From Shigella phage EP23, in the sequence record JN984867: DNA of 44,077 bases; one strand, written 5' to 3'. Within the stretch, counting starts at the first letter, position 1. The number at the start of each line of letters is the position of its first letter. Below the pieces are notes generated by a model that was not told where the DNA came from, ran no database searches, and saw only the letters and a program-made list of their open reading frames with translations. This document shows, one piece after another, positions 26,924-32,298 of this stretch. The position numbers and the translations under genes are program-made.

Positions 26924-28351
26924 TTAAATTTTCCTCGTTTTCTTAGCTTTCATGTATTCCATCAAGTCGTCCTGGATATCTCGCCTACTGTCGCGACGCT
27001 CGGCGACCAATTCGTCCAGTGTCCCGCGAGCCTGGATAATGTAGACGAATACTGGTCGAGGGTGTCCGGCTTGCATCTGGCGAACCGGCCCGATACGTTC
27101 AACGATCTGCGAAAAGTGCTCAAAGTTCCAGGTATCGGAGAAGATTGCCAGGTGATGTCCGCCGTCCTGCAAGTTAAGGCCGTGGCCTGCCGATGCCGGG
27201 TGTGCAAACATGATGGGGATCTCGCCCCTGTTCCACGCTTCCATATCCTTATTGCCCTGCTTACCCTTACCCAACGCGACGCCGTGCGGAAATTTCTTCT
27301 TAAGACGTGCCAGATCATGCTTGTACTGATACGCAACGAGCAACGGCGCGCCGTTCAACTCCTCCACGATACTTTCCAGCGCGTCCAGCTTCGCGTCGTG
27401 AATCTTCACCCACTCGTCGGTCCGTTCGCCGTCTTCGTCCACCTTATACACAGCGCCGGATGCAAGCTGAAGGCACTTAATTGTCTTCGCCGCGGCGTTC
27501 GCCGCTTCCACTGTTCCGCTTTCCAGTTCGGCAAATAGCTCGCTTTCAAACTGGTCATAAATCTTGCGGGCTTTCTTCGGCAGGTCCACAACAACCGGCG
27601 TATAGATTGGCTTGTCACACCCGAAGTATTCAGCCGCATCAACGGTTAGCGACACGTCGGACAGTCGTTGTTGTATTTCTTTCTCGGAGTTCTTAAGCGG
27701 GGCGTGCTGCATCGTGAAGCTGCCAGGCTTAACAGGCTTGCTAATAAACCAGCGGTCCGTGAACGCCTTATAGCTACTGCCGAGACGTTCGCCGCCGTCG
27801 ACAAACCACGTCTGACCCCATAGGTCTTTCAGCCCGTTCGGTGCGGGTGTGCCAGTCAGGTTAATCCAGCGCTTGACGTGCTTATGTGCGATCGCTGCCA
27901 GCGCACGGGCGCGCTTACTTCCCTGCTTGCTTCTATAGCCTTTCAGCTTAGTGGATTCATCGGCAACCACGACCGTAAAGGGCCACTCGTCGCCGCAATA
28001 CTCAACAAGCCACTCAACTACATCATAGTTAATACAAACCACGTTAGCGTCGCTCTCAAGCGCAGCGATGCGGTCCTTCTCTGGCCCAGTGCCGTCTACT
28101 ACCAGCAAGGCTGGGAAGCGCCATTTCTCCTGTTCCGGGGGCCATGTACCGGACGCAACGCGCAGCGGGGCCAGCACCAGTACGCGGTCATCCTGGTTGG
28201 ACAGGATGCCAGTCTGGAACATTTTATTCAGCGCCCACATGGTCGCGCCGGTTTTACCCGACCCCATTGTCGCCCATATATTGCATCGCTTATGCTTGAG
28301 GATGAACGCGGTTATCAACTTCTGATATTCGCGACGTCGGAAACGTGCCAT
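26924..28351 (-). CDS. SNF2/DEAD-like helicase
   Basis: Walker A ATMGSGKTG, motif II VVADESTKLK, C-terminal helicase domain (HPASAGHGLNLQ). The ORF is open to 28441. The ATG at 28351 avoids a 90-nt overlap with the upstream gene. Confidence 0.85.
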   Translation of the reverse strand: MARFRRREYQKLITAFILKHKRCNIWATMGSGKTGATMWALNKMFQTGILSNQDDRVLVLAPLRVASGTWPPEQEKWRFPALLVVDGTGPEKDRIAALESDANVVCINYDVVEWLVEYCGDEWPFTVVVADESTKLKGYRSKQGSKRARALAAIAHKHVKRWINLTGTPAPNGLKDLWGQTWFVDGGERLGSSYKAFTDRWFISKPVKPGSFTMQHAPLKNSEKEIQQRLSDVSLTVDAAEYFGCDKPIYTPVVVDLPKKARKIYDQFESELFAELESGTVEAANAAAKTIKCLQLASGAVYKVDEDGERTDEWVKIHDAKLDALESIVEELNGAPLLVAYQYKHDLARLKKKFPHGVALGKGKQGNKDMEAWNRGEIPIMFAHPASAGHGLNLQDGGHHLAIFSDTWNFEHFSQIVERIGPVRQMQAGHPRPVFVYIIQARGTLDELVAERRDSRRDIQDDLMEYMKAKKTRKI

Positions 28352-28355
28352 TTCT

Positions 28356-28574
28356 TTATTCCGCCTTTTTCCAGACTTCAGTTTCACTATCCCAGTTCCT
28401 CTTTGTGGCGTCGTAGTTGGTGGCGTGTCCGACGTGGACACCGGTAGCCCGGAAGCTCTTAAATTTTTGCCAGCACACCGTCAACGGCAGTGGGTAATTT
28501 AGGCCCGCGATAAACCACACGCGATCGCCTGGTTTACATTCGCCCAGCTTGGTGAGTCGGTAATGTTCTTTCAT
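28356..28574 (-). CDS. hypothetical protein (72 aa)
   Basis: SD GGGAGA 7 nt upstream of the ATG at 28574 (alternative start 28580). Confidence 0.5.
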   Translation of the reverse strand: MKEHYRLTKLGECKPGDRVWFIAGLNYPLPLTVCWQKFKSFRATGVHVGHATNYDATKRNWDSETEVWKKAE

Positions 28575-28586
28575 CGTCATGTCTCC

Positions 28587-28610
28587 CAAAAATGGCGGGA
28601 CAAGCCCGCC
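28587..28610 (-). terminator. candidate terminator
   Basis: On the minus strand: GGCGGG-CTTGT-CCCGCC followed by ATTTTT. The plus strand contains one GCGGGACA box. Confidence 0.5.
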
Positions 28611-28617
28611 GTATTAA

Positions 28618-28791
28618 TTATTTTTGTTCTGCACGGTAGCGGCGCTGCCGTTCGCGCTCTTTCTTATTGCGGCACGATTTGCACTCTGCCCGATACCCGT
28701 CTGGACTGCGCGCAGTCTTACCGGTGTATTTGTGGAACTGGGATAGCGGCTTTACACAGCCGCAATTACTACAACGTTTTTCTTCAATCAT
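28618..28791 (-). CDS. small zinc-ribbon protein (57 aa)
   Basis: CSNCGC ... CKSCRNKK four-Cys pattern, basic C-tail. Start trimmed to 28791 behind GAGGA, downstream of the 28823-28851 promoter. Confidence 0.55.
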   Translation of the reverse strand: MIEEKRCSNCGCVKPLSQFHKYTGKTARSPDGYRAECKSCRNKKERERQRRYRAEQK

Positions 28792-28822
28792 CTCTAAAAT
28801 CCTCGATATGGCTAACCGGCAC

Positions 28823-28851
28823 ACTATACCGCTATGCGACCAATTCAGCAA
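28823..28851 (-). promoter_or_regulatory. sigma70-like promoter
   Basis: On the minus strand: TTGGTTGCTG (-35 TTGCTG)-17 nt-TATAGT, with TTGGTCGCA in the spacer. Confidence 0.5.
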
Positions 28852-29110
28852 CCAATAAATCGCAGTCGGATATGTTGTCGATAACGCGAACGTCAGCACC
28901 GCGGCGGGCCATTCGCTCATGTTCACGTACCTGGTGCGGCTTCGGTTTTCCTCCGGGGCGCTTCACTTCGACGAACACTATTTTGCCGTTGATGATAATA
29001 ATCAGGTCGGGCGCACCTGCGCGCCCCTCCCATGCCAGTTTTCGGCAGAATCCGCCAACATCTTTCACCCGTCTCATCAGGTGGCTTTGAATCTTGCCTT
29101 CTGGTGTCAT
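28832..29110 (-). CDS. VRR-NUC domain nuclease
   Basis: 92 aa. GAPDLIIIINGKIVFVEVKRPGGKPKPHQVREHERM matches the VRR-NUC core (D...EVK). Its ATG overlaps the polymerase stop by 1 nt (TAATG). Confidence 0.8.
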   Translation of the reverse strand: MTPEGKIQSHLMRRVKDVGGFCRKLAWEGRAGAPDLIIIINGKIVFVEVKRPGGKPKPHQVREHERMARRGADVRVIDNISDCDLLVAELVA

Positions 29111-32100
29111 TACTTGCGGTAGCGATACATGCAATCGCCCTCTGCGGCAAGTGGGAAGCCTTTCGCCCAAACCGGCAGGTCGCACATCAGCGCGCACAAC
29201 TCCTCGGTTGTGTAGTCGTCGGTATCCGGCACTTCGGTTATCAGCTCATCGTGTACGGAAAGTACGATCTCATACCCCGCAGCTTCAACGCCAGGCATGG
29301 ACCATGCGAGAATATCGCGGCACAACGCCTGTACGATGTTTTCCGTCAGTTTGCCGCCGTAGGTATACTGGAATCCCCACTGGCGCGTCGTCTGATTCTC
29401 GCCCTGATATTTAATGCGTGTGCTGGTGCGCTTCTTGCCGGTGTCTTCGTCGATCTCGGTCGTGACAGACAGCGCGATGCCAGGGTAGCTCATGATGCGC
29501 CCTGACGGCAACTCAATTTTAAGCCACCACCCCGCCGCGTTCGGGTCGTCGCGCTCCTCGTCGAAGGTCGGGTCATGCTTCGCCTTCGTTCGAACAATTT
29601 TGAGCGCTTTCCTGCCATCCGGGCGAACGTTCGCGCCAGCCCAGTACGCTTTGCCCGGATTGCGGATCGCGCAGAGCACCGCGTCCTCCAGTTCGGCCCA
29701 AAAGGCTACCGTCATCGGGTGAGACTCACGCCACATACGTTTGATCGCGTCACACGTCAGCCACACGTTTTTCGGCAGTATGTAAGTTGGGCGCTCGTCT
29801 TTCTTGCCAGGCTTCGGCGGGCGCTTCTCCTCGTTAATGCGAGCGTACTCATAACCCCGCTTCGCCGCCGCCCAAATGTGATCCGGGAATGTGCCCTTCA
29901 TGACGTCAGCCATAGTGTAAAGGTCGAGGCCCAGGTTTTTAGCGAACTGCAAGAACGCCGCGACGCCGCCACCATAGCCCAGGCCAAGCTCGCAGTTATG
30001 CGCCACCAGAAAACCAGACTTAGACGCAATAAGGAACCGGTTTCCGTCTTCCACATCAATCAGGTCGTAAACCGGCTCGCAATAGGTTAACTTCCCGTTC
30101 CAGTTCAGCAATGCGGGTAAGGGCTTCATCGTACTTTCTCTGAAGCTCGGGCACGCTGCGCCGGTTACGGCAGTTTTCCGAACGGCTGACAAACCGAAGG
30201 TTTCCAGGCTCATAGTCGCCGTCTGTATCGATCCTGTCCATTTCGAAGTCTGGCTTATCCCAGCCGTCCAGCGTTTGAACGTAGAGAAGAAACGACCTTT
30301 TATCTCTCTTCCATTCGTCACATACGGCAATCCCACGACCGCCGTAGTTTTTATACCCTTTGGCGCGGGGGTTTGTCGTTCGTGATATTGCCGCTGACAG
30401 CCGGTTGAGTAGCCGCGTTCTGTGCGCATCGTCTGGCATTGCGTCATCGTAGCAAAAATACTGTTTACGATACCGCTTTGTCGCTTCAATTGCGCAGAGG
30501 TTGCATTGGGATGTTTTACCCCTTCGGACGTTGTCATACCCGACGCGTCCTGGCATCGCTCCGCAATCACATTGGGCCAGCAGTTGTCTGTGACCCTGTC
30601 GTTTTGGTAATTCGCGCAGGATAACCAGGCGTCCATACCTCTCGCCAGGGCGCGGACCATCGTGCACCTGTCTGAAACGAGTTGCCTTGCCTCCTTCCAT
30701 GAATGCGTCAAGATTTTGTGGTCTTCTGTCATCAAGACCCCGTCCACGTCTATCACTGGTTTCCACCCCATAAGGTGCGCGCCTTTTGTACTCACCCATT
30801 TTTCGCCGTTCCATACTTTATCCGTTGATGTTACGGCCATAATATCCTTGAACCCGCCATTGGTCAATACTTGGGTATGGCGGTGCAAGCAAGCCTTACC
30901 GATCTGGCGTAAGTCCTTGCGGTTGGCTTTAATGTAATCCGGGTCAAGGCCGAACATCTTACCGGCAGTCTCGCAATAGATATCGCGACCGGCCTTAAAG
31001 ACCATTAACGCTGTTTTCTCGCCAGCGATCCAGGCAAGTCCACGCCCTTCCACATTGGAGTAGTCCGCTACGACAAACTTCTTGCCCTTCGCCGGAATAA
31101 TGCACCCGCGAACGGTCGAGGCCGTTAGCTTCGATATGTCATACGCCCAGTGTGCGGTCCCGCGTAACAGGGAGTTGATGCCGTTGGTGAGCATGTGCGA
31201 CCGGACCCAAAACGAGACGTCGCTTTCACCCTCGCGGCGTTTAATCTTCCCTTCGTGGTCGTCGCTGTACTCGCCACGCGCCAGGTTTTGAGGCTGGAAG
31301 CCTTTGCCCGCCCAGCGCAGCGTGCGCTTTGCGCCGCCATACTGAAGACACCCACGGCGGCGACCATCTGCGGATAAGCCGTTAACTAGCGGATTGTACT
31401 TAGTCGATGCCGTTGATGACGCCCCGAGGCGCATTTCGATAAGCGCTTTGCCTTCGTCGGGGAAGTCCGGGTCTTCAAGCAGGTCGTTAAGCGTGGATTT
31501 CTGCGCGTTGTGGATCGTGAACGCCGGGGCGATATCACGCAGGATTGGCAGGAAGTCATTGCCTGTCAGCTTACCGCCAAATCGCTCCCAGGCTTCTTCC
31601 TTCAATTCTTCCTTATGCGCCTGCACCGCTTTGATCGCGGCGTTCGCCAGGTCAACGTCGACGTAGAAGCCGCGGTCGTTAATCAACTGGTCGATGAGCA
31701 GGATTTCATCTTCCTTAGGCGAGTTTCCCCAGTCCGGTATGCGCCAGTAGACTTCACGCATTGCGATAATATCCAGCGCGGCATAGCGCAGAAATTTGGC
31801 CCATTCTTCCGGGTGAGTCTCGCGAGTGTAGCGGCGGATTTTGTAGGTCTTAGGGGTAGGCTTACAGAATCGGTTAATCAGCGCCTTGCCTGCCTTATCC
31901 TTCGCGTGCTCTGCGTCAACGCCCAGAACCTGGCACTGCATATCGAGGCTACCGGGCAGCGCGTGGCGAAAGGCCATAATCATAGTGTCTTCGATCTGGC
32001 TTACCGGCAGGTCAATACCCCACTTCTCGCGGATAACCAGGCGGTCAAACAGGAGGCCGTTAGCCATCACTATTTTAGCCTTCTTGCGGGATACCCGGCG

Positions 32101-32298
32101 GAGCGCCTTGCGCAGTTCACGCGGCATTGTGGGGGATTCAGTGGCATCCCATGTCTGCACGCGGCCCTCGTCTATGGCGTAGGTGCAAATCATAATCTCT
32201 GTGGTTGGGTGCTCCGCGTAGGCGTACGCCCCAACTTTCTTCAGGTCCACCCCGCTAAATGTCTCGGTGTCGAGAAACAGGCGTTCGAAGTCTTTCAT
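29110..32298 (-). CDS. family A DNA polymerase precursor with 3'-5' exonuclease domain, interrupted by an intein
   Basis: Exo I FLDTETFS. Polymerase motif B is split as RQIGKA|C...HN|CELGLGYGGG. Exteins are 30892-32298 and 29110-29994. Confidence 0.9.
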   Translation of the reverse strand: MKDFERLFLDTETFSGVDLKKVGAYAYAEHPTTEIMICTYAIDEGRVQTWDATESPTMPRELRKALRRVSRKKAKIVMANGLLFDRLVIREKWGIDLPVSQIEDTMIMAFRHALPGSLDMQCQVLGVDAEHAKDKAGKALINRFCKPTPKTYKIRRYTRETHPEEWAKFLRYAALDIIAMREVYWRIPDWGNSPKEDEILLIDQLINDRGFYVDVDLANAAIKAVQAHKEELKEEAWERFGGKLTGNDFLPILRDIAPAFTIHNAQKSTLNDLLEDPDFPDEGKALIEMRLGASSTASTKYNPLVNGLSADGRRRGCLQYGGAKRTLRWAGKGFQPQNLARGEYSDDHEGKIKRREGESDVSFWVRSHMLTNGINSLLRGTAHWAYDISKLTASTVRGCIIPAKGKKFVVADYSNVEGRGLAWIAGEKTALMVFKAGRDIYCETAGKMFGLDPDYIKANRKDLRQIGKACLHRHTQVLTNGGFKDIMAVTSTDKVWNGEKWVSTKGAHLMGWKPVIDVDGVLMTEDHKILTHSWKEARQLVSDRCTMVRALARGMDAWLSCANYQNDRVTDNCWPNVIAERCQDASGMTTSEGVKHPNATSAQLKRQSGIVNSIFATMTQCQTMRTERGYSTGCQRQYHERQTPAPKGIKTTAVVGLPYVTNGREIKGRFFSTFKRWTAGISQTSKWTGSIQTATMSLETFGLSAVRKTAVTGAACPSFRESTMKPLPALLNWNGKLTYCEPVYDLIDVEDGNRFLIASKSGFLVAHNCELGLGYGGGVAAFLQFAKNLGLDLYTMADVMKGTFPDHIWAAAKRGYEYARINEEKRPPKPGKKDERPTYILPKNVWLTCDAIKRMWRESHPMTVAFWAELEDAVLCAIRNPGKAYWAGANVRPDGRKALKIVRTKAKHDPTFDEERDDPNAAGWWLKIELPSGRIMSYPGIALSVTTEIDEDTGKKRTSTRIKYQGENQTTRQWGFQYTYGGKLTENIVQALCRDILAWSMPGVEAAGYEIVLSVHDELITEVPDTDDYTTEELCALMCDLPVWAKGFPLAAEGDCMYRYRK
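29995..30891 (-). mobile_element. intein (299 aa) in polymerase motif B
   Basis: Block A CLHRHTQVLTNGGFKDI, block B LMTEDHKILT, C-terminal blocks VYDLIDVEDGNRFLIASKSGFLVAHN followed by the +1 Cys. Boundary codons checked on the sequence: 30889-30891 = Cys, 29995-30000 = His-Asn, 29992-29994 = Cys. Confidence 0.85.
30056..30814 (-). CDS. HNH-family homing endonuclease-like ORF nested inside the intein in the -1 frame
   Basis: Motifs GERYGRLVIL, CDCG...QCNLC, YKNYGGRGIAVCDEW, MDRIDTDGDYEPGNLRFVSRSENCRNRR. 30814 is the maximal ORF start. The ATG at 30700 (214 aa) lies just before the conserved core. No clear SD at either start. Confidence 0.7.
   Translation of the reverse strand: MERRKMGEYKRRAPYGVETSDRRGRGLDDRRPQNLDAFMEGGKATRFRQVHDGPRPGERYGRLVILRELPKRQGHRQLLAQCDCGAMPGRVGYDNVRRGKTSQCNLCAIEATKRYRKQYFCYDDAMPDDAHRTRLLNRLSAAISRTTNPRAKGYKNYGGRGIAVCDEWKRDKRSFLLYVQTLDGWDKPDFEMDRIDTDGDYEPGNLRFVSRSENCRNRRSVPELQRKYDEALTRIAELEREVNLLRAGLRPD

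What the first reader, a model, noticed from the sequence alone, without database searches (positions are those of the whole stretch)
30056..30814. HNH homing-endonuclease gene overprinted out of frame inside an intein: both frames stay open
A 252-codon ORF (30056-30814, minus strand) lies entirely within the intein (29995-30891) but in the -1 frame. Polymerase codons start at coordinates = 0 mod 3 and the nested ORF's at 1 mod 3. Its product has a clean phage HNH-family signature: GERYGRLVIL, CDCG..QCNLC, YKNYGGRGIAVCDEW, MDRIDTDGDYEPGNLRFVSRSENCRNRR. The polymerase-frame translation of the same stretch (pol aa ~541-737, e.g. ...CANYQNDRVTDNCWPNVIAERCQDASGMTT...MTQCQTMRTERGYSTGCQRQYHERQTP...) has no Hint or endonuclease motif and an off-frame-like composition. 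Yet it has no stop codon for ~200 codons. An off-frame that long would normally accumulate many stops, so both frames appear to be under selection. The polymerase frame must stay open because the ribosome has to reach the C-terminal splicing block and the C-extein. The -1 frame must stay open because it encodes the endonuclease. Canonical inteins carry the endonuclease in frame as a domain. Here a mini-intein linker seems to double as a free-standing homing-endonuclease gene. I do not know of a described example. How the nested ORF is translated is unresolved: no SD precedes the ATG at 30814 or 30700.
Basis: partly seen in the sequence, partly recalled or inferred. Interest (0 to 1): 0.9.

Follow-up and report, generated by a model that had tools for sequence, protein, structure and literature searches.

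The report
Intein with out-of-frame nested endonuclease gene
A self-splicing protein insert (intein) in this phage's DNA polymerase gene carries a second, separately read gene for a likely DNA-cutting "homing" enzyme in a shifted reading frame; the arrangement is real, old and widespread in phages, and the general type has already been described.

Summary
The family-A DNA polymerase gene (29110-32298, minus) carries a 299-codon class-1 intein (30891-29995). Its central ~600 nt are stop-free both in the polymerase frame and in the -1 (+2) frame, while the third frame has 24 stops.

Sequencing error is excluded: the same layout occurs in 5 other Dhillonviruses, about 144 Salmonella Jerseyviruses, and 39 metagenomic PolA inteins sharing only 36-50% nested-protein identity, always in the same relative frame.

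Selection switches frame sharply. The Hint ends are constrained in the polymerase frame (dN/dS 0.04-0.08). The middle is constrained in the nested frame (0.14). There the polymerase frame evolves neutrally (about 1.0) and is only kept free of stops.

The intein is far more conserved than its exteins. It is absent from most Dhillonviruses, and its flanking synonymous changes co-segregate with it. These are signatures of active homing.

Two caveats apply. The "HNH" label is weaker than claimed: there is no Pfam HNH match and the catalytic His is replaced. The architecture is also not unprecedented (Gorbalenya 1998; two Gogarten-lab preprints, 2025 and 2026).

Verdict: real, interpretation supported, a new member of a known kind.

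The parts
29110..32298 (-). Family-A DNA polymerase precursor gene (1062 codons) that hosts the intein
   Evidence: ORF list. Pfam DNA_pol_A match, E 1.7e-13. 94-97% nt identity to Dhillonvirus polymerase genes.
30892..32298 (-). N-extein (469 codons), ending ...RQIGKA
   Evidence: Intein boundaries from translation, and from intein-less alleles that lack exactly 897 nt.
29995..30891 (-). Class-1 intein (299 codons), inserted in PolA motif B between GKA and CELGLGYGGG
   Evidence: Cys1, T-E-D-H block B and terminal His-Asn with +1 Cys. A profile of 8 diverse homologues hits only inteins at the top of the PDB list: NEQ068 2e-4, PI-MtuI about 1e-3, Spl DnaX mini-intein 3.5e-3. Precisely absent from PTXU06, mckay, TheodorHerzl, BF9, Pandora71 and Gluttony_ev152.
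30640..30891 (-). Hint N-terminal splicing region (blocks A, N2, B, N4), constrained in the polymerase frame
   Evidence: Over intein nt 1-210, F0 dN/dS is 0.08 and F2 is 1.19. Invariant residues C1, T6, W27, G29, W32, T55, D57, H58 and W65 across 8 diverse inteins.
29995..30081 (-). Hint C-terminal splicing region (blocks F, G: VYDLIDVEDGNRFLIASKSGFLVAHN), constrained in the polymerase frame
   Evidence: F0 dN/dS 0.04. 13 of 14 variable sites fall at F0 third codon positions.
30056..30814 (-).
   Evidence: Annotated as gp39 'HNH endonuclease' in Sodalis phage SO-1.
30056..30799 (-). Probable true nested gene (247 codons plus TGA), starting at the family-conserved ATG
   Evidence: Translation. 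The ATG at intein nt 93/99 is present in 32 of 37 inteins. Most metagenomic gene calls and the UniProt LPSE1 entry are 247 aa. Jerseyviruses have a stop between the 30814 and 30799 equivalents.
30800..30812 (-). Shine-Dalgarno-like purine tract (GGAACGGCGAAAA) built from the Hint codons W-N-G-E-K; weak in this phage
   Evidence: Duplex energy with the anti-SD is -3.9 kcal/mol here. The family mean is -7.5, against -2.5 +/- 2.7 for background windows.
30059..30681 (-). Part of the nested gene under purifying selection in its own frame; the polymerase frame here is a stop-free, unconstrained linker
   Evidence: Over intein nt 211-810, F2 dN/dS is 0.14 and F0 is 1.02. 91 of 159 variable sites fall at F2 third positions. 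The AF2 model of the F2 product has mean pLDDT 93.7.
30494..30571 (-). CxC...CxxC putative zinc-binding motif of the nested protein (CDCG...QCNLC)
   Evidence: Translation. C44, C46, C66 and C69 are nearly invariant in 77 relatives.
30164..30241 (-). beta-beta-alpha (His-Me-finger-like) motif MDRIDTDGDYEPGNLRFVSRSENCRN of the nested protein
30839..30867 (-). Promoter-like TTGACC-17-TATTAT inside the intein's 5' end; function unproven
   Evidence: Consensus scan gives 10 of 12 matches, with 0.9 such sites expected by chance in the region. The hexamers are largely conserved in Jerseyviruses but are also constrained by Hint codons.

Best explanation
This is a mobile class-1 intein sitting in motif B of a phage family-A DNA polymerase. 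The position where canonical inteins carry an in-frame homing-endonuclease domain is filled by a separate gene in the -1 (+2) frame. That gene encodes a roughly 247-aa zinc-ribbon plus beta-beta-alpha (HNH-like, His-Me-finger-type) protein.

Ribosomes translating the polymerase read straight through this gene in the polymerase frame. That produces about 190 residues of unconstrained 'linker'. The two Hint halves then excise the linker together with themselves, leaving GKA-CELGLGYGGG.

The nested protein is made independently from the same mRNA by internal initiation, most likely at ATG 30799. That start codon and its Shine-Dalgarno-like tract are built from the conserved Hint codons W-D/N-G-x-x-W. 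The protein's first 35-40 residues overlap the Hint-N coding region, and its C-terminal helix overlaps the approach to Hint-C.

The nested protein is inferred to cut intein-less polymerase alleles near the insertion site during co-infection. Repair from the intein-bearing genome would then copy the intein and a few flanking bases into the cut allele.

Shown here: the dual open frames, frame-specific selection, horizontal spread and conservation of the start site. Inferred: splicing, nuclease activity, the target site and the initiation mechanism.
For: 1. Both frames are open while the third is closed, in the window, in 10 related phage genomes, in 7 long metagenomic contigs and in 32 of 32 close IMG/VR relatives. 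Over 37 parsed inteins the middle region has 0 F0, 0 F2 and 437 third-frame stops.

2. Selection switches frame. Hint-N has F0 dN/dS 0.08, the middle has F2 0.14 against F0 1.02, and Hint-C has F0 0.04. Family-wide amino-acid identity in the middle is 49% in F2 and 27% in F0.

3. Chance is excluded by codon resampling, P = 0.003 and 0.0007. Free-standing relatives act as controls: all 48 have at least 2 stops in that offset frame.

4. Intein identity is supported by Cys1, TxxH and HN|C being invariant. A profile search of the PDB returns only inteins among its 11 best hits. Intein-less alleles lack exactly the 897 nt.

5. Mobility is supported in four ways. Among Dhillonviruses the intein has 2.1% variable sites against about 14% in the exteins. 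Between Dhillon- and Jerseyviruses the intein is 82.6% identical, while the exteins are 64% identical with saturated synonymous sites. Only 7 of about 160 Dhillonvirus records carry it. Five synonymous differences within 13 nt of the junction co-segregate 6 versus 6 with intein presence, and the intein-bearing version matches the Jerseyvirus flank.

6. The start site is supported by an ATG at intein nt 93/99 in 32 of 37 inteins, with SD-like sequence upstream (-7.5 against -2.5 kcal/mol). F2 is stop-free across nt 93-210 in 8 of 8 diverse loci; the product of per-locus chance probabilities is 7e-7.

Against: Nuclease activity is not demonstrated, and the family is non-canonical.
- No Pfam HNH model hits any of 77 members.
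- Foldseek against the PDB gives nothing below E 0.4.
- hhalign to an HNH_3 protein is insignificant.
- The residue aligned with the first catalytic His is Asp.

In this particular phage the SD before ATG 30799 is weak (-3.9 kcal/mol). The SD-like tract and the ATG are partly forced by conserved Hint residues, so their conservation is not independent evidence.

Pfam Hint models do not match the intein. The AF2 model of the polymerase-frame intein was uninformative (pLDDT 33).

No expression or splicing data exist for any member that I could find.
Confidence: 0.82

Rival explanations
1. Sequencing or assembly artefact: two compensating indels have put an ordinary in-frame Hint-HNH-Hint intein out of frame.
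For: One public record, Salmonella phage SS3e, has an ORF that reads Hint-N in the polymerase frame and then continues in the nested frame (P0006). Indels at this locus therefore do occur in databases.
Against: The window, 5 Dhillonviruses and 5 Jerseyviruses sequenced by different laboratories all have an identical 897-nt length and frame layout, as do 39 divergent metagenomic contigs. Two indels would also not explain why the off-frame is stop-free (P = 0.003 or less).
Confidence: 0.01
2. The insert is a group I intron carrying a free-standing HNH ORF, as the SO-1 GenBank note says ('type I self-splicing intron').
For: The SO-1 record annotates gp38 and gp39 this way. HNH genes are common in phage group I introns (established knowledge).
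Against: An Rfam scan of 29700-31200 at E <= 1 finds no RNA family at all. The insert is an exact multiple of 3 and is kept stop-free in the host frame in every relative. It begins with Cys, ends with His-Asn plus Cys, and has a TxxH block. Its ends evolve under protein-level constraint in the host frame.
Confidence: 0.02
3. The nuclease is not translated independently. Ribosomes shift -1 out of the polymerase frame, giving an N-extein/Hint-N/HNH fusion. With a second shift back they would give a canonical Hint-HNH-Hint intein.
For: The nested frame is always the -1 frame. The SD-like tract could in principle stimulate shifting. The SD in this phage is weak for initiation.
Against: I saw no X XXY YYZ slippery heptamer when reading the sequence between the last F2 stop and the nuclease core. 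The polymerase frame would not need to stay open over 600 nt if ribosomes left it. An ATG at a fixed position is conserved in 32 of 37 inteins. The uniform -1 relation is explained more simply: the host frame is then the nuclease's +1 frame, which is the cheapest to keep open (4 stops against 13-16).
Confidence: 0.04
4. The nested protein is conserved but is not the homing nuclease. It could be a DNA-binding or regulatory protein, or a partner that recruits another nuclease, with mobility provided in trans.
For: The canonical catalytic His is missing and there is no Pfam HNH match. Relatives carry names such as AP2/ERF or 'DNA-binding domain protein'. Some relatives, such as SO-1, have a separate free-standing HNH gene just downstream of the polymerase.
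Against: It is the only conserved ORF that travels with the intein. The beta-beta-alpha motif residues D, R, Y, N, R, N are invariant or nearly so. The best structural match, PacI, is from memory an HNH enzyme that itself uses Tyr rather than His. This window lacks the downstream HNH gene yet retains a near-identical intein.
Confidence: 0.1
5. The nested ORF is a decaying relic of a once in-frame endonuclease domain and is open only because the frameshift is recent.
For: Intein endonuclease domains commonly decay after fixation (homing-cycle model, established knowledge). The intein is nearly fixed in Jerseyviruses.
Against: dN/dS is 0.14 in the nested frame between genera. The ORF is intact in relatives down to 36% identity, always in the same frame. 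No in-frame version was found.
Confidence: 0.01

Closest known systems
Actinobacteriophage inteins with an endonuclease VII-like gene in 'frame 3' (Gosselin, Arsenault & Gogarten, bioRxiv 10.1101/2025.01.02.630785)
   Same: A class-1 Hint domain whose endonuclease region is read in the +2 frame while the host frame stays open. I re-derived the +2 offset from their Keitabear sequence. The distribution suggests ongoing transfer. The authors propose invasion of a mini-intein by a free-standing nuclease gene.
   Different: Their nuclease is a canonical Endo VII (CVDHDH...CNDCN), with no evident sequence similarity to the DRID...Y..N..N protein here. Their report covers actinobacteriophages only. 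[quoted passage not shown] Here the probable start, its SD and about 35-40 codons lie inside Hint-N. In some relatives the stop codon is made from the terminal His-Asn codons.
Cyanobacterial dnaX intein with a +2-frame LAGLIDADG endonuclease (Phillips, DeSimone & Gogarten, bioRxiv 10.64898/2026.09.14.751524; first noted by Gorbalenya 1998, 'Non-canonical inteins', as cited there)
   Same: A +2 ORF. Purifying selection acts in the nuclease frame and dN/dS is elevated in the host frame over the overlap. The distribution is sporadic, and secondary invasion of a mini-intein is proposed.
   Different: That case has a LAGLIDADG nuclease, a cellular (cyanobacterial) host and the DNA polymerase III gamma/tau extein.
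ShiLan insertion: out-of-frame HNH gene inside a mycobacteriophage DNA methylase (Arsenault et al., Genes 2025, PMC11855218)
   Same: An HNH-type gene in the third frame of a host gene that reads through without stops. It behaves as an actively homing element, and how it is translated is unresolved.
   Different: No splicing domain was detected there, and the read-through peptide is thought to stay in the methylase. Here clear Hint blocks flank the nested gene.
Fractured genes: split inteins with a free-standing endonuclease gene between the halves (Dassa et al., NAR 2009, PMC2677866)
   Same: A free-standing type of nuclease gene sits at the endonuclease position of an intein. This is consistent with the 'splicing first, nuclease invades later' model (abstract; discussion).
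   Different: There the host gene is physically split into two ORFs and splicing occurs in trans. Here the host ORF is continuous and the two genes overlap.
Canonical phage inteins with an in-frame HNH domain
   Same: An intein plus a His-Me-type nuclease in a phage replication gene (cited).
   Different: In those the nuclease is a domain of the intein polypeptide. Here it is a separate translation product.

Membership tests
Class-1 intein (Hint domain) | Nucleophilic Cys/Ser at intein position 1 | tested here: met
   Cys470 of the precursor. Invariant in 8 aligned diverse homologues and in all 37 parsed inteins.
Class-1 intein (Hint domain) | Block B TxxH motif | tested here: met
   T-E-D-H at intein residues 55-58. 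T55, D57 and H58 are invariant.
Class-1 intein (Hint domain) | C-terminal His-Asn followed by a +1 Cys/Ser/Thr | tested here: met
   VAHN|C here. The pattern is HN|C in 35 and HN|S in 2 of 37 inteins.
Class-1 intein (Hint domain) | In-frame insertion at a conserved host site, with alleles that lack exactly the insert | tested here: met
   An 897-nt insert in PolA motif B. Six intein-less Dhillonvirus alleles join GKA directly to CELGLGYGGG.
Class-1 intein (Hint domain) | Sequence-profile similarity to known Hint domains | tested here: inconclusive
   A profile of 8 mini-inteins hits only inteins among its top 11 PDB matches (E 2e-4 to 8e-3). Pfam Hint models give no hit to the single sequence, and the AF2 model was too poor to search.
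Class-1 intein (Hint domain) | Protein splicing of the precursor | not testable with these tools
   Inferred only. The polymerase is presumably essential, and motif B is interrupted in about 150 viable phage isolates.
HNH / His-Me finger endonuclease | beta-beta-alpha-metal fold | tested here: inconclusive
HNH / His-Me finger endonuclease | Catalytic His at the end of strand beta-1 (the first H of HNH) | tested here: not met
   The family has an invariant Asp155-Arg156 there ((L/M)DRxD). An invariant Tyr163 lies nearby.
HNH / His-Me finger endonuclease | Conserved Asn in the loop or strand beta-2, and Asn/His on the helix | tested here: met
   N167 is invariant and N179 nearly invariant in 77 sequences.
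HNH / His-Me finger endonuclease | Match to curated HNH profiles | tested here: not met
   No Pfam HNH family matches at E <= 1 for this protein or at E <= 0.01 for 77 relatives. NCBIfam gives nothing. Only the PHROG families named 'HNH endonuclease' match (phrog_374, 2e-47).
HNH / His-Me finger endonuclease | DNA cleavage activity | not testable with these tools
   I found no biochemical data for any member.
[quoted passage not shown] | Endonuclease-type ORF in another frame between the splicing blocks, with the host frame open | tested here: met
[quoted passage not shown] | Purifying selection in the nested frame and relaxed amino-acid constraint in the host frame over the overlap | tested here: met
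   dN/dS is 0.14 in the nested frame against 1.02 in the host frame.
[quoted passage not shown] | Evidence of horizontal movement | tested here: met
   The intein is far more conserved than its exteins, its presence is sporadic, and flanking changes look co-converted.
Group I intron with endonuclease ORF | Group I ribozyme structure, with the insert not translated as part of the host protein | tested here: not met
   No Rfam match at E <= 1. The host frame is open and protein-constrained at both ends.
Fractured gene / split intein with free-standing endonuclease | Host gene split into two ORFs | tested here: not met
   A single continuous 1062-codon ORF.

The most novel reading that the evidence does not exclude
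This may be the largest and oldest family yet seen of dual-coded inteins. It is a clade of PolA motif-B inteins in many uncultured phages plus two enterobacterial phage genera.

In this clade the nuclease gene has become physically interlocked with the splicing domain. Its ribosome-binding site and start codon are written in the invariant Hint codons W-D-G-x-x-W. In some members its TAA stop is written in the terminal His-Asn codons.

The four nested nuclease genes whose frame I checked all sit in the +2 frame. That suggests a general rule: invasion succeeds only in the frame that leaves the host reading the nuclease's nearly stop-free +1 frame.

The nuclease itself would be an uncharacterised His-less variant of the His-Me finger, belonging to a superfamily with more than 85,000 sequence clusters.
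Probability: 0.45. Interest if true: 0.6.

Novelty: new member of a known kind. Interest (0 to 1): 0.5.

Why it matters
1. It extends out-of-frame intein endonuclease genes to well-studied, culturable E. coli and Salmonella phages. The other described cases are in actinobacteriophages and cyanobacteria. Homing, splicing and internal initiation can be tested directly in these phages by mixed infection and mutagenesis.

2. It gives strong comparative support to the 'splicing domain first, free-standing nuclease invades later' model of intein origin. The closest relatives of the nested gene outside the clade are all free-standing, and no in-frame intermediate was found.

3. It offers a simple explanation for why the nested endonuclease genes checked so far sit in the +2 frame. 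The host then reads the nuclease's +1 frame, where only NTA|R and NTG|A create stops, so few changes are needed to open it.

4. It exposes an annotation gap. Only 1 of the 10 related phage records I fetched annotates the nested gene, and one record calls the insert an intron.

5. The nested protein belongs to a very large, biochemically uncharacterised nuclease-like family that lacks the canonical histidine.

Tried and rejected
- **Pfam and NCBIfam scans.** Scans of the nested ORF, of the intein, and of a spliced-together mini-intein gave no relevant hits.
- **PDB sequence searches with the nested protein.** A single-sequence search and a search with a 77-sequence profile found nothing. The single mini-intein also found nothing. 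Only the 8-sequence mini-intein profile worked.
- **Structure of the polymerase-frame intein.** AF2 with a 9-sequence alignment gave pLDDT 33. This was unusable, so I could not show by structure that the read-through linker is disordered.
- **Protein-database searches for the polymerase-frame intein.** The single sequence returned 5 proteins and the profile returned 3, too few for a deeper alignment. Gene callers evidently seldom report that frame.
- **First IMG/VR scan.** A scan with the single protein found only SO-1 itself and one distant hit. The scan with the alignment succeeded.
- **hhalign of the family against one HNH_3 protein.** The motifs lined up suggestively, but the probability was only 0.7%.
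- **Programmed frameshifting.** No slippery heptamer was visible in the aligned sequence.
- **ATG 30700 and GTG 30667 as conserved starts.** Rejected because they are CTG and ATA in Jerseyviruses.
- **Internal promoter.** One consensus match at 30867-30839 is no more than chance expectation for the region.
- **Group I intron.** No Rfam match.
- **Literature.** Searches for SO-1, SETP3, Dhillonvirus or Jerseyvirus together with 'intein' found no description of this polymerase intein's nested gene.
Full report
**1. What is in the sequence**

The window is a Dhillonvirus-like E. coli siphophage. Its polymerase gene is 94-97% identical to those of Escherichia phage P-GXEC-L2P5, Sodalis phage SO-1, vB_EcoS_PS2, AV129 and Pubbukkers.

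The family-A DNA polymerase gene runs 32298..29110 on the minus strand and has 1062 codons. Translation shows an insert of exactly 299 codons between ...RQIGKA and CELGLGYGGG. This insert occupies window 30891..29995. It starts CLHRHTQ and ends FLVAHN.

Within these 897 nt the polymerase frame (F0) has no stop. The +1 frame has 24 stops. The +2 (= -1) frame (F2) has 4, all outside a 252-codon ORF at 30814..30056.

**2. Not an artefact, and not chance**

The same 897-nt insert with the same three-frame stop pattern is present in five other Dhillonviruses sequenced in the UK, USA, China, Korea and Denmark. It is also present in five Salmonella Jerseyviruses that I fetched: SETP3, S532, 5sent1, f18SE and UPWr_S3. 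A tblastn search shows about 144 Salmonella phage records with the nested protein at 80-90% identity, under genes annotated as DNA polymerase in every such record listed.

I resampled synonymous codons while keeping the nested protein unchanged. With phage codon usage this gives on average 4.2 stops in F0 and only a 0.3% chance of none. Permuting the ORF's own codons gives a 0.07% chance.

An independent control comes from IMG/VR. Of 80 loci encoding relatives of the nested protein, the 32 most similar (36-50% identity) all have zero stops in that offset frame and lie inside 455-1117-codon open polymerase frames (890 or more wherever the contig is not cut short). The other 48 (37% or less over the full protein; one 43% partial match) are free-standing genes. 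Every one of those has at least 2 stops in that frame (mean 6.9), and they average 12.1 in the other frame.

Seven further long metagenomic contigs carry nested proteins that are 43-48% identical to this one. All show the same nesting and the same relative frame. Over the 37 inteins that I could delimit, the middle region has 0 stops in F0, 0 in F2 and 437 in the third frame.

**3. Which frame is under what selection**

I compared Dhillon- and Jerseyvirus inteins, which are 82.6% identical in nucleotides, by Nei-Gojobori estimates.

| Region (intein nt) | F0 dN/dS | F2 dN/dS |
|---|---|---|
| Hint-N (1-210) | 0.08 | 1.19 |
| Middle (211-810) | 1.02 | 0.14 |
| Hint-C (811-897) | 0.04 | not defined (dS = 0) |

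In the middle, 91 of 159 variable sites fall at F2 third codon positions. The two Hint ends are therefore protein-constrained in the polymerase frame. The middle is protein-constrained in the nested frame. In the middle the polymerase frame is constrained only to lack stops.

Across the whole family, mean pairwise identity in the middle is 49% in F2 and 27% in F0. A short stretch near intein residues 78-84 appears conserved in both frames at once: L.QAL in F0 and P.xGxRFGxLTV in F2.

**4. Is the host element an intein?**

Pfam's Hint models do not match. The defining residues are nevertheless all present and invariant in eight homologues that share 31-39% identity with the window's intein. These are Cys1, the block-B T-x-D-H, and the terminal His-Asn followed by Cys.

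A profile built from these eight mini-inteins retrieves only inteins as its 11 best PDB matches. They include the Nanoarchaeum polymerase split intein (2e-4), the M. tuberculosis RecA mini-intein (about 1e-3) and the Spl DnaX mini-intein (3.5e-3).

Six intein-less Dhillonvirus alleles lack exactly the 897 nt. An Rfam scan finds no group I intron or any other RNA family. The SO-1 GenBank note 'type I self-splicing intron' is therefore not supported.

My AlphaFold attempt on the polymerase-frame intein failed (pLDDT 33 with only nine sequences). The claim that the read-through linker is unstructured remains an inference from its neutral evolution.

**5. What is the nested protein?**

PHROGs places it in families named 'HNH endonuclease' (phrog_374, E 2e-47). 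GenBank calls the SO-1 copy an HNH endonuclease.

With a 77-sequence alignment AlphaFold gives a confident model (pLDDT 93.7). The model has:
- an N-terminal small beta-barrel bearing a CxC...CxxC motif;
- a helical middle containing the YxNYGGRGI motif;
- a beta-beta-alpha element at residues 152-178;
- a long C-terminal helix.

The invariant residues are D155, R156, Y163, N167 and R169, with N179 nearly invariant. The motif is (L/M)DRxD..G.Y.P.N.R....EN. Where HNH_3-type enzymes have the first catalytic His, this family has Asp. From memory, PacI also lacks that His and is thought to use a Tyr. That is a lead, not a test.

I therefore call the protein HNH-like (His-Me-finger-like). I treat its nuclease activity as probable but unproven.

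The domain superfamily is very large: 85,113 cluster representatives at E <= 1e-3 and 20,365 at E <= 1e-10. BFVD structural neighbours are phage proteins named HNH or homing endonuclease or AP2-domain proteins. The nearest relatives outside the nested clade are free-standing genes, for example in Staphylococcus Kayviruses.

**6. Evidence that the element moves**

Among the six intein-bearing Dhillonviruses, 2.1% of intein sites vary against 13.6-14.5% of extein sites.

Between Dhillon- and Jerseyviruses the exteins are only 64% identical, with saturated synonymous sites (pS about 0.77). The intein is 82.6% identical, with dS of about 0.6-0.85. Dual coding slows the intein's evolution somewhat. 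Even so, the Hint ends, which are single-coded in effect, show the same low divergence.

Only 7 of about 160 Dhillonvirus records carry the insert. The window's N-extein is closer to the intein-less allele of PTXU06 (95.7%) than to two of the three intein-bearing alleles compared, Pubbukkers and PS2 (92%).

Five synonymous differences within 13 nt of the junction co-segregate perfectly with intein presence, six alleles against six. The intein-bearing alleles have GCT|TGCGAGCTTGGC and the intein-less alleles have GCG|TGCGAATTGGGA. The intein-bearing version matches the Jerseyvirus flank. This is what co-conversion during homing would produce, or a protective change of the target.

**7. How the nested gene is probably expressed**

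Comparative data point elsewhere.
- In Jerseyviruses the 30814 equivalent is followed two codons later by a stop.
- The 30700 equivalent is CTG in Jerseyviruses.
- An ATG corresponding to 30799 is conserved.
- Across 37 inteins an F2 ATG sits at intein nt 93 or 99 in 32.
- Most metagenomic gene calls, and the UniProt entry for phage LPSE1, are 247 aa, which is the length from that ATG.

The 15 nt upstream of this ATG pair with the anti-SD at a mean of -7.5 kcal/mol. Background windows give -2.5 +/- 2.7. Both the tract (TGG GAY GGN GAR ...) and the ATG (NNA TGG) are written in the conserved Hint residues W-D-G-x-x-W. Part of this signal is therefore a by-product of Hint conservation. In this window the tract is the weakest of the set (-3.9).

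F2 is stop-free from nt 93 to 210 in all eight diverse loci tested. The product of the per-locus chance probabilities is 7e-7. F2 shows no amino-acid constraint there (dN/dS 1.19). The first 35-40 residues therefore look like an obligatory but arbitrary leader.

I saw no slippery heptamer that would support frameshifting. A promoter-like TTGACC-17-TATTAT sits at 30867-30839, but one such match is the chance expectation for the region.

I rate internal initiation at 30799 at about 0.6. Initiation at 30814, 30700 or elsewhere takes most of the rest.

**8. Why the +2 frame**

An F0 codon consists of positions 2 and 3 of one nuclease codon plus position 1 of the next. A stop in F0 therefore needs NTA followed by a purine, or NTG followed by A. 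That explains the low expected stop count in this frame, about 4 against 13-16 in the other. In free-standing relatives the counts are 6.9 against 12.1.

The ShiLan HNH ('third frame'), the actinophage Endo VII inteins ('frame 3'; I verified +2 on Keitabear), the cyanobacterial dnaX intein ('+2 ORF') and this family all use the same offset. I offer 'cheapest frame to open' as the explanation. This is an inference from four cases.

**9. Comparison with what is known, and novelty**

Out-of-frame or antisense endonuclease genes inside inteins were proposed by Gorbalenya in 1998, as cited. Three recent reports are relevant:
- actinobacteriophage inteins, with Endo VII-like genes in the +2 frame and antisense LAGLIDADG and VSR-like genes;
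- the cyanobacterial dnaX intein, with a +2 LAGLIDADG gene, supported by the same kind of frame-specific selection analysis;
- an out-of-frame HNH gene in a phage methylase that lacks any intein.

I found no paper describing the PolA motif-B intein of Dhillon- and Jerseyviruses or its nested gene. The SO-1 GenBank record does annotate the ORF.

The finding is therefore a new member of a known kind. What is new is the nuclease family, the extein and the host range. The overlap with the splicing blocks is also deeper than described before. In relatives the nested stop lies 1-61 nt before the intein end. In nine of the 37 it is a TAA formed from the terminal His-Asn codons CAT AAY.

**10. Verdict**

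My confidence in the overall mechanism is about 0.8. The weakest links are the enzymatic activity of the nested protein and the initiation site. Interest is moderate (0.5). The case is a clean, experimentally tractable and apparently undescribed example, and it adds a plausible general rule, but the concept is no longer new.

Noticed in passing
L014-L050 (metagenomic and IMG/VR loci); window 29995/30891 junctions: Homologous inteins occupy two insertion points four codons apart in PolA motif B. One is GKx|C-ELGLGYG, as in the window. The other is GKxxELA|C-GYGGG. The +1 residue is Ser instead of Cys in two cases (L033, L048).
   Followed up: partly
L015, L016, L017, L026, L028, L034, L038, L041, L047, L050 (intein 3' ends): In these relatives the nested ORF runs to within 1 nt of the intein end. 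Where the last two intein codons are CAT AAY, its TAA stop is formed from the terminal His-Asn codons. The nuclease gene then overlaps the whole Hint-C region.
   Followed up: partly
window 29983-30905 (extein flanks of the intein) and L001-L007, L103-L107: Five synonymous differences within 13 nt of the insertion point co-segregate with intein presence (6 intein-bearing against 6 intein-less Dhillonvirus alleles). The intein-bearing version equals the Jerseyvirus flank. This suggests co-conversion or target-site protection.
   Followed up: yes
P0006 (Salmonella phage SS3e, 40,793-bp record): The SS3e ORF annotated 'HNH endonuclease' starts in the polymerase frame (Hint-N) and switches to the nested frame at ...YQNDKAKD|QLLVQCDCG. 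That record therefore has an indel at the locus, either a sequencing error or a dead polymerase allele.
   Followed up: no
one search hit table (P0002-P0100): Most metagenomic contigs carrying the nested ORF are only 0.9-1.1 kb, about the size of the intein. This is what assemblers produce when intein-bearing and intein-less alleles coexist in a sample (graph bubbles).
   Followed up: no
window 30839-30867 (minus strand): A sigma-70-like TTGACC-17-TATTAT sits inside the first 50 nt of the intein, 25-40 nt upstream of the nested ORF's ATGs. It is mostly conserved in Jerseyviruses but coincides with the constrained Hint codons V-L-T and D-I-M.
   Followed up: partly
L001 3756-4188 (SO-1 gp37), L003, L007 4217-4714; window about 28440-29110: SO-1, P-GXEC-L2P5 and SETP3 have an additional free-standing HNH endonuclease gene just downstream of the polymerase. 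This window and Pubbukkers lack it. Jerseyvirus helicase genes also carry an intein (SETP3 gp34, 5sent1, S532), which the window's helicase (26924-28441) lacks.
   Followed up: no
one search hit table: Two database oddities. The P-GXEC-L2P5 record is 88.6 kb, about twice a Dhillonvirus genome. 'Campylobacter phage A144' (MG065648) matches the Dhillonvirus polymerase at 92.7%, which suggests a mislabelled or contaminant record.
   Followed up: no
The nested protein's domain family (YxNYGGRGI ... DRxD..G.Y.P.N.R) is enormous: 85,113 cluster representatives at E <= 1e-3, many with 2-5 repeats per protein. It is not covered by any Pfam HNH model, and I found no biochemical characterisation.
   Followed up: partly
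searches compared with the window: All four nested endonuclease genes whose frame is stated or that I checked sit in the +2 frame of the host gene. These are the ShiLan HNH, the actinophage Endo VII inteins, the cyanobacterial dnaX LAGLIDADG and this family.
   Followed up: partly
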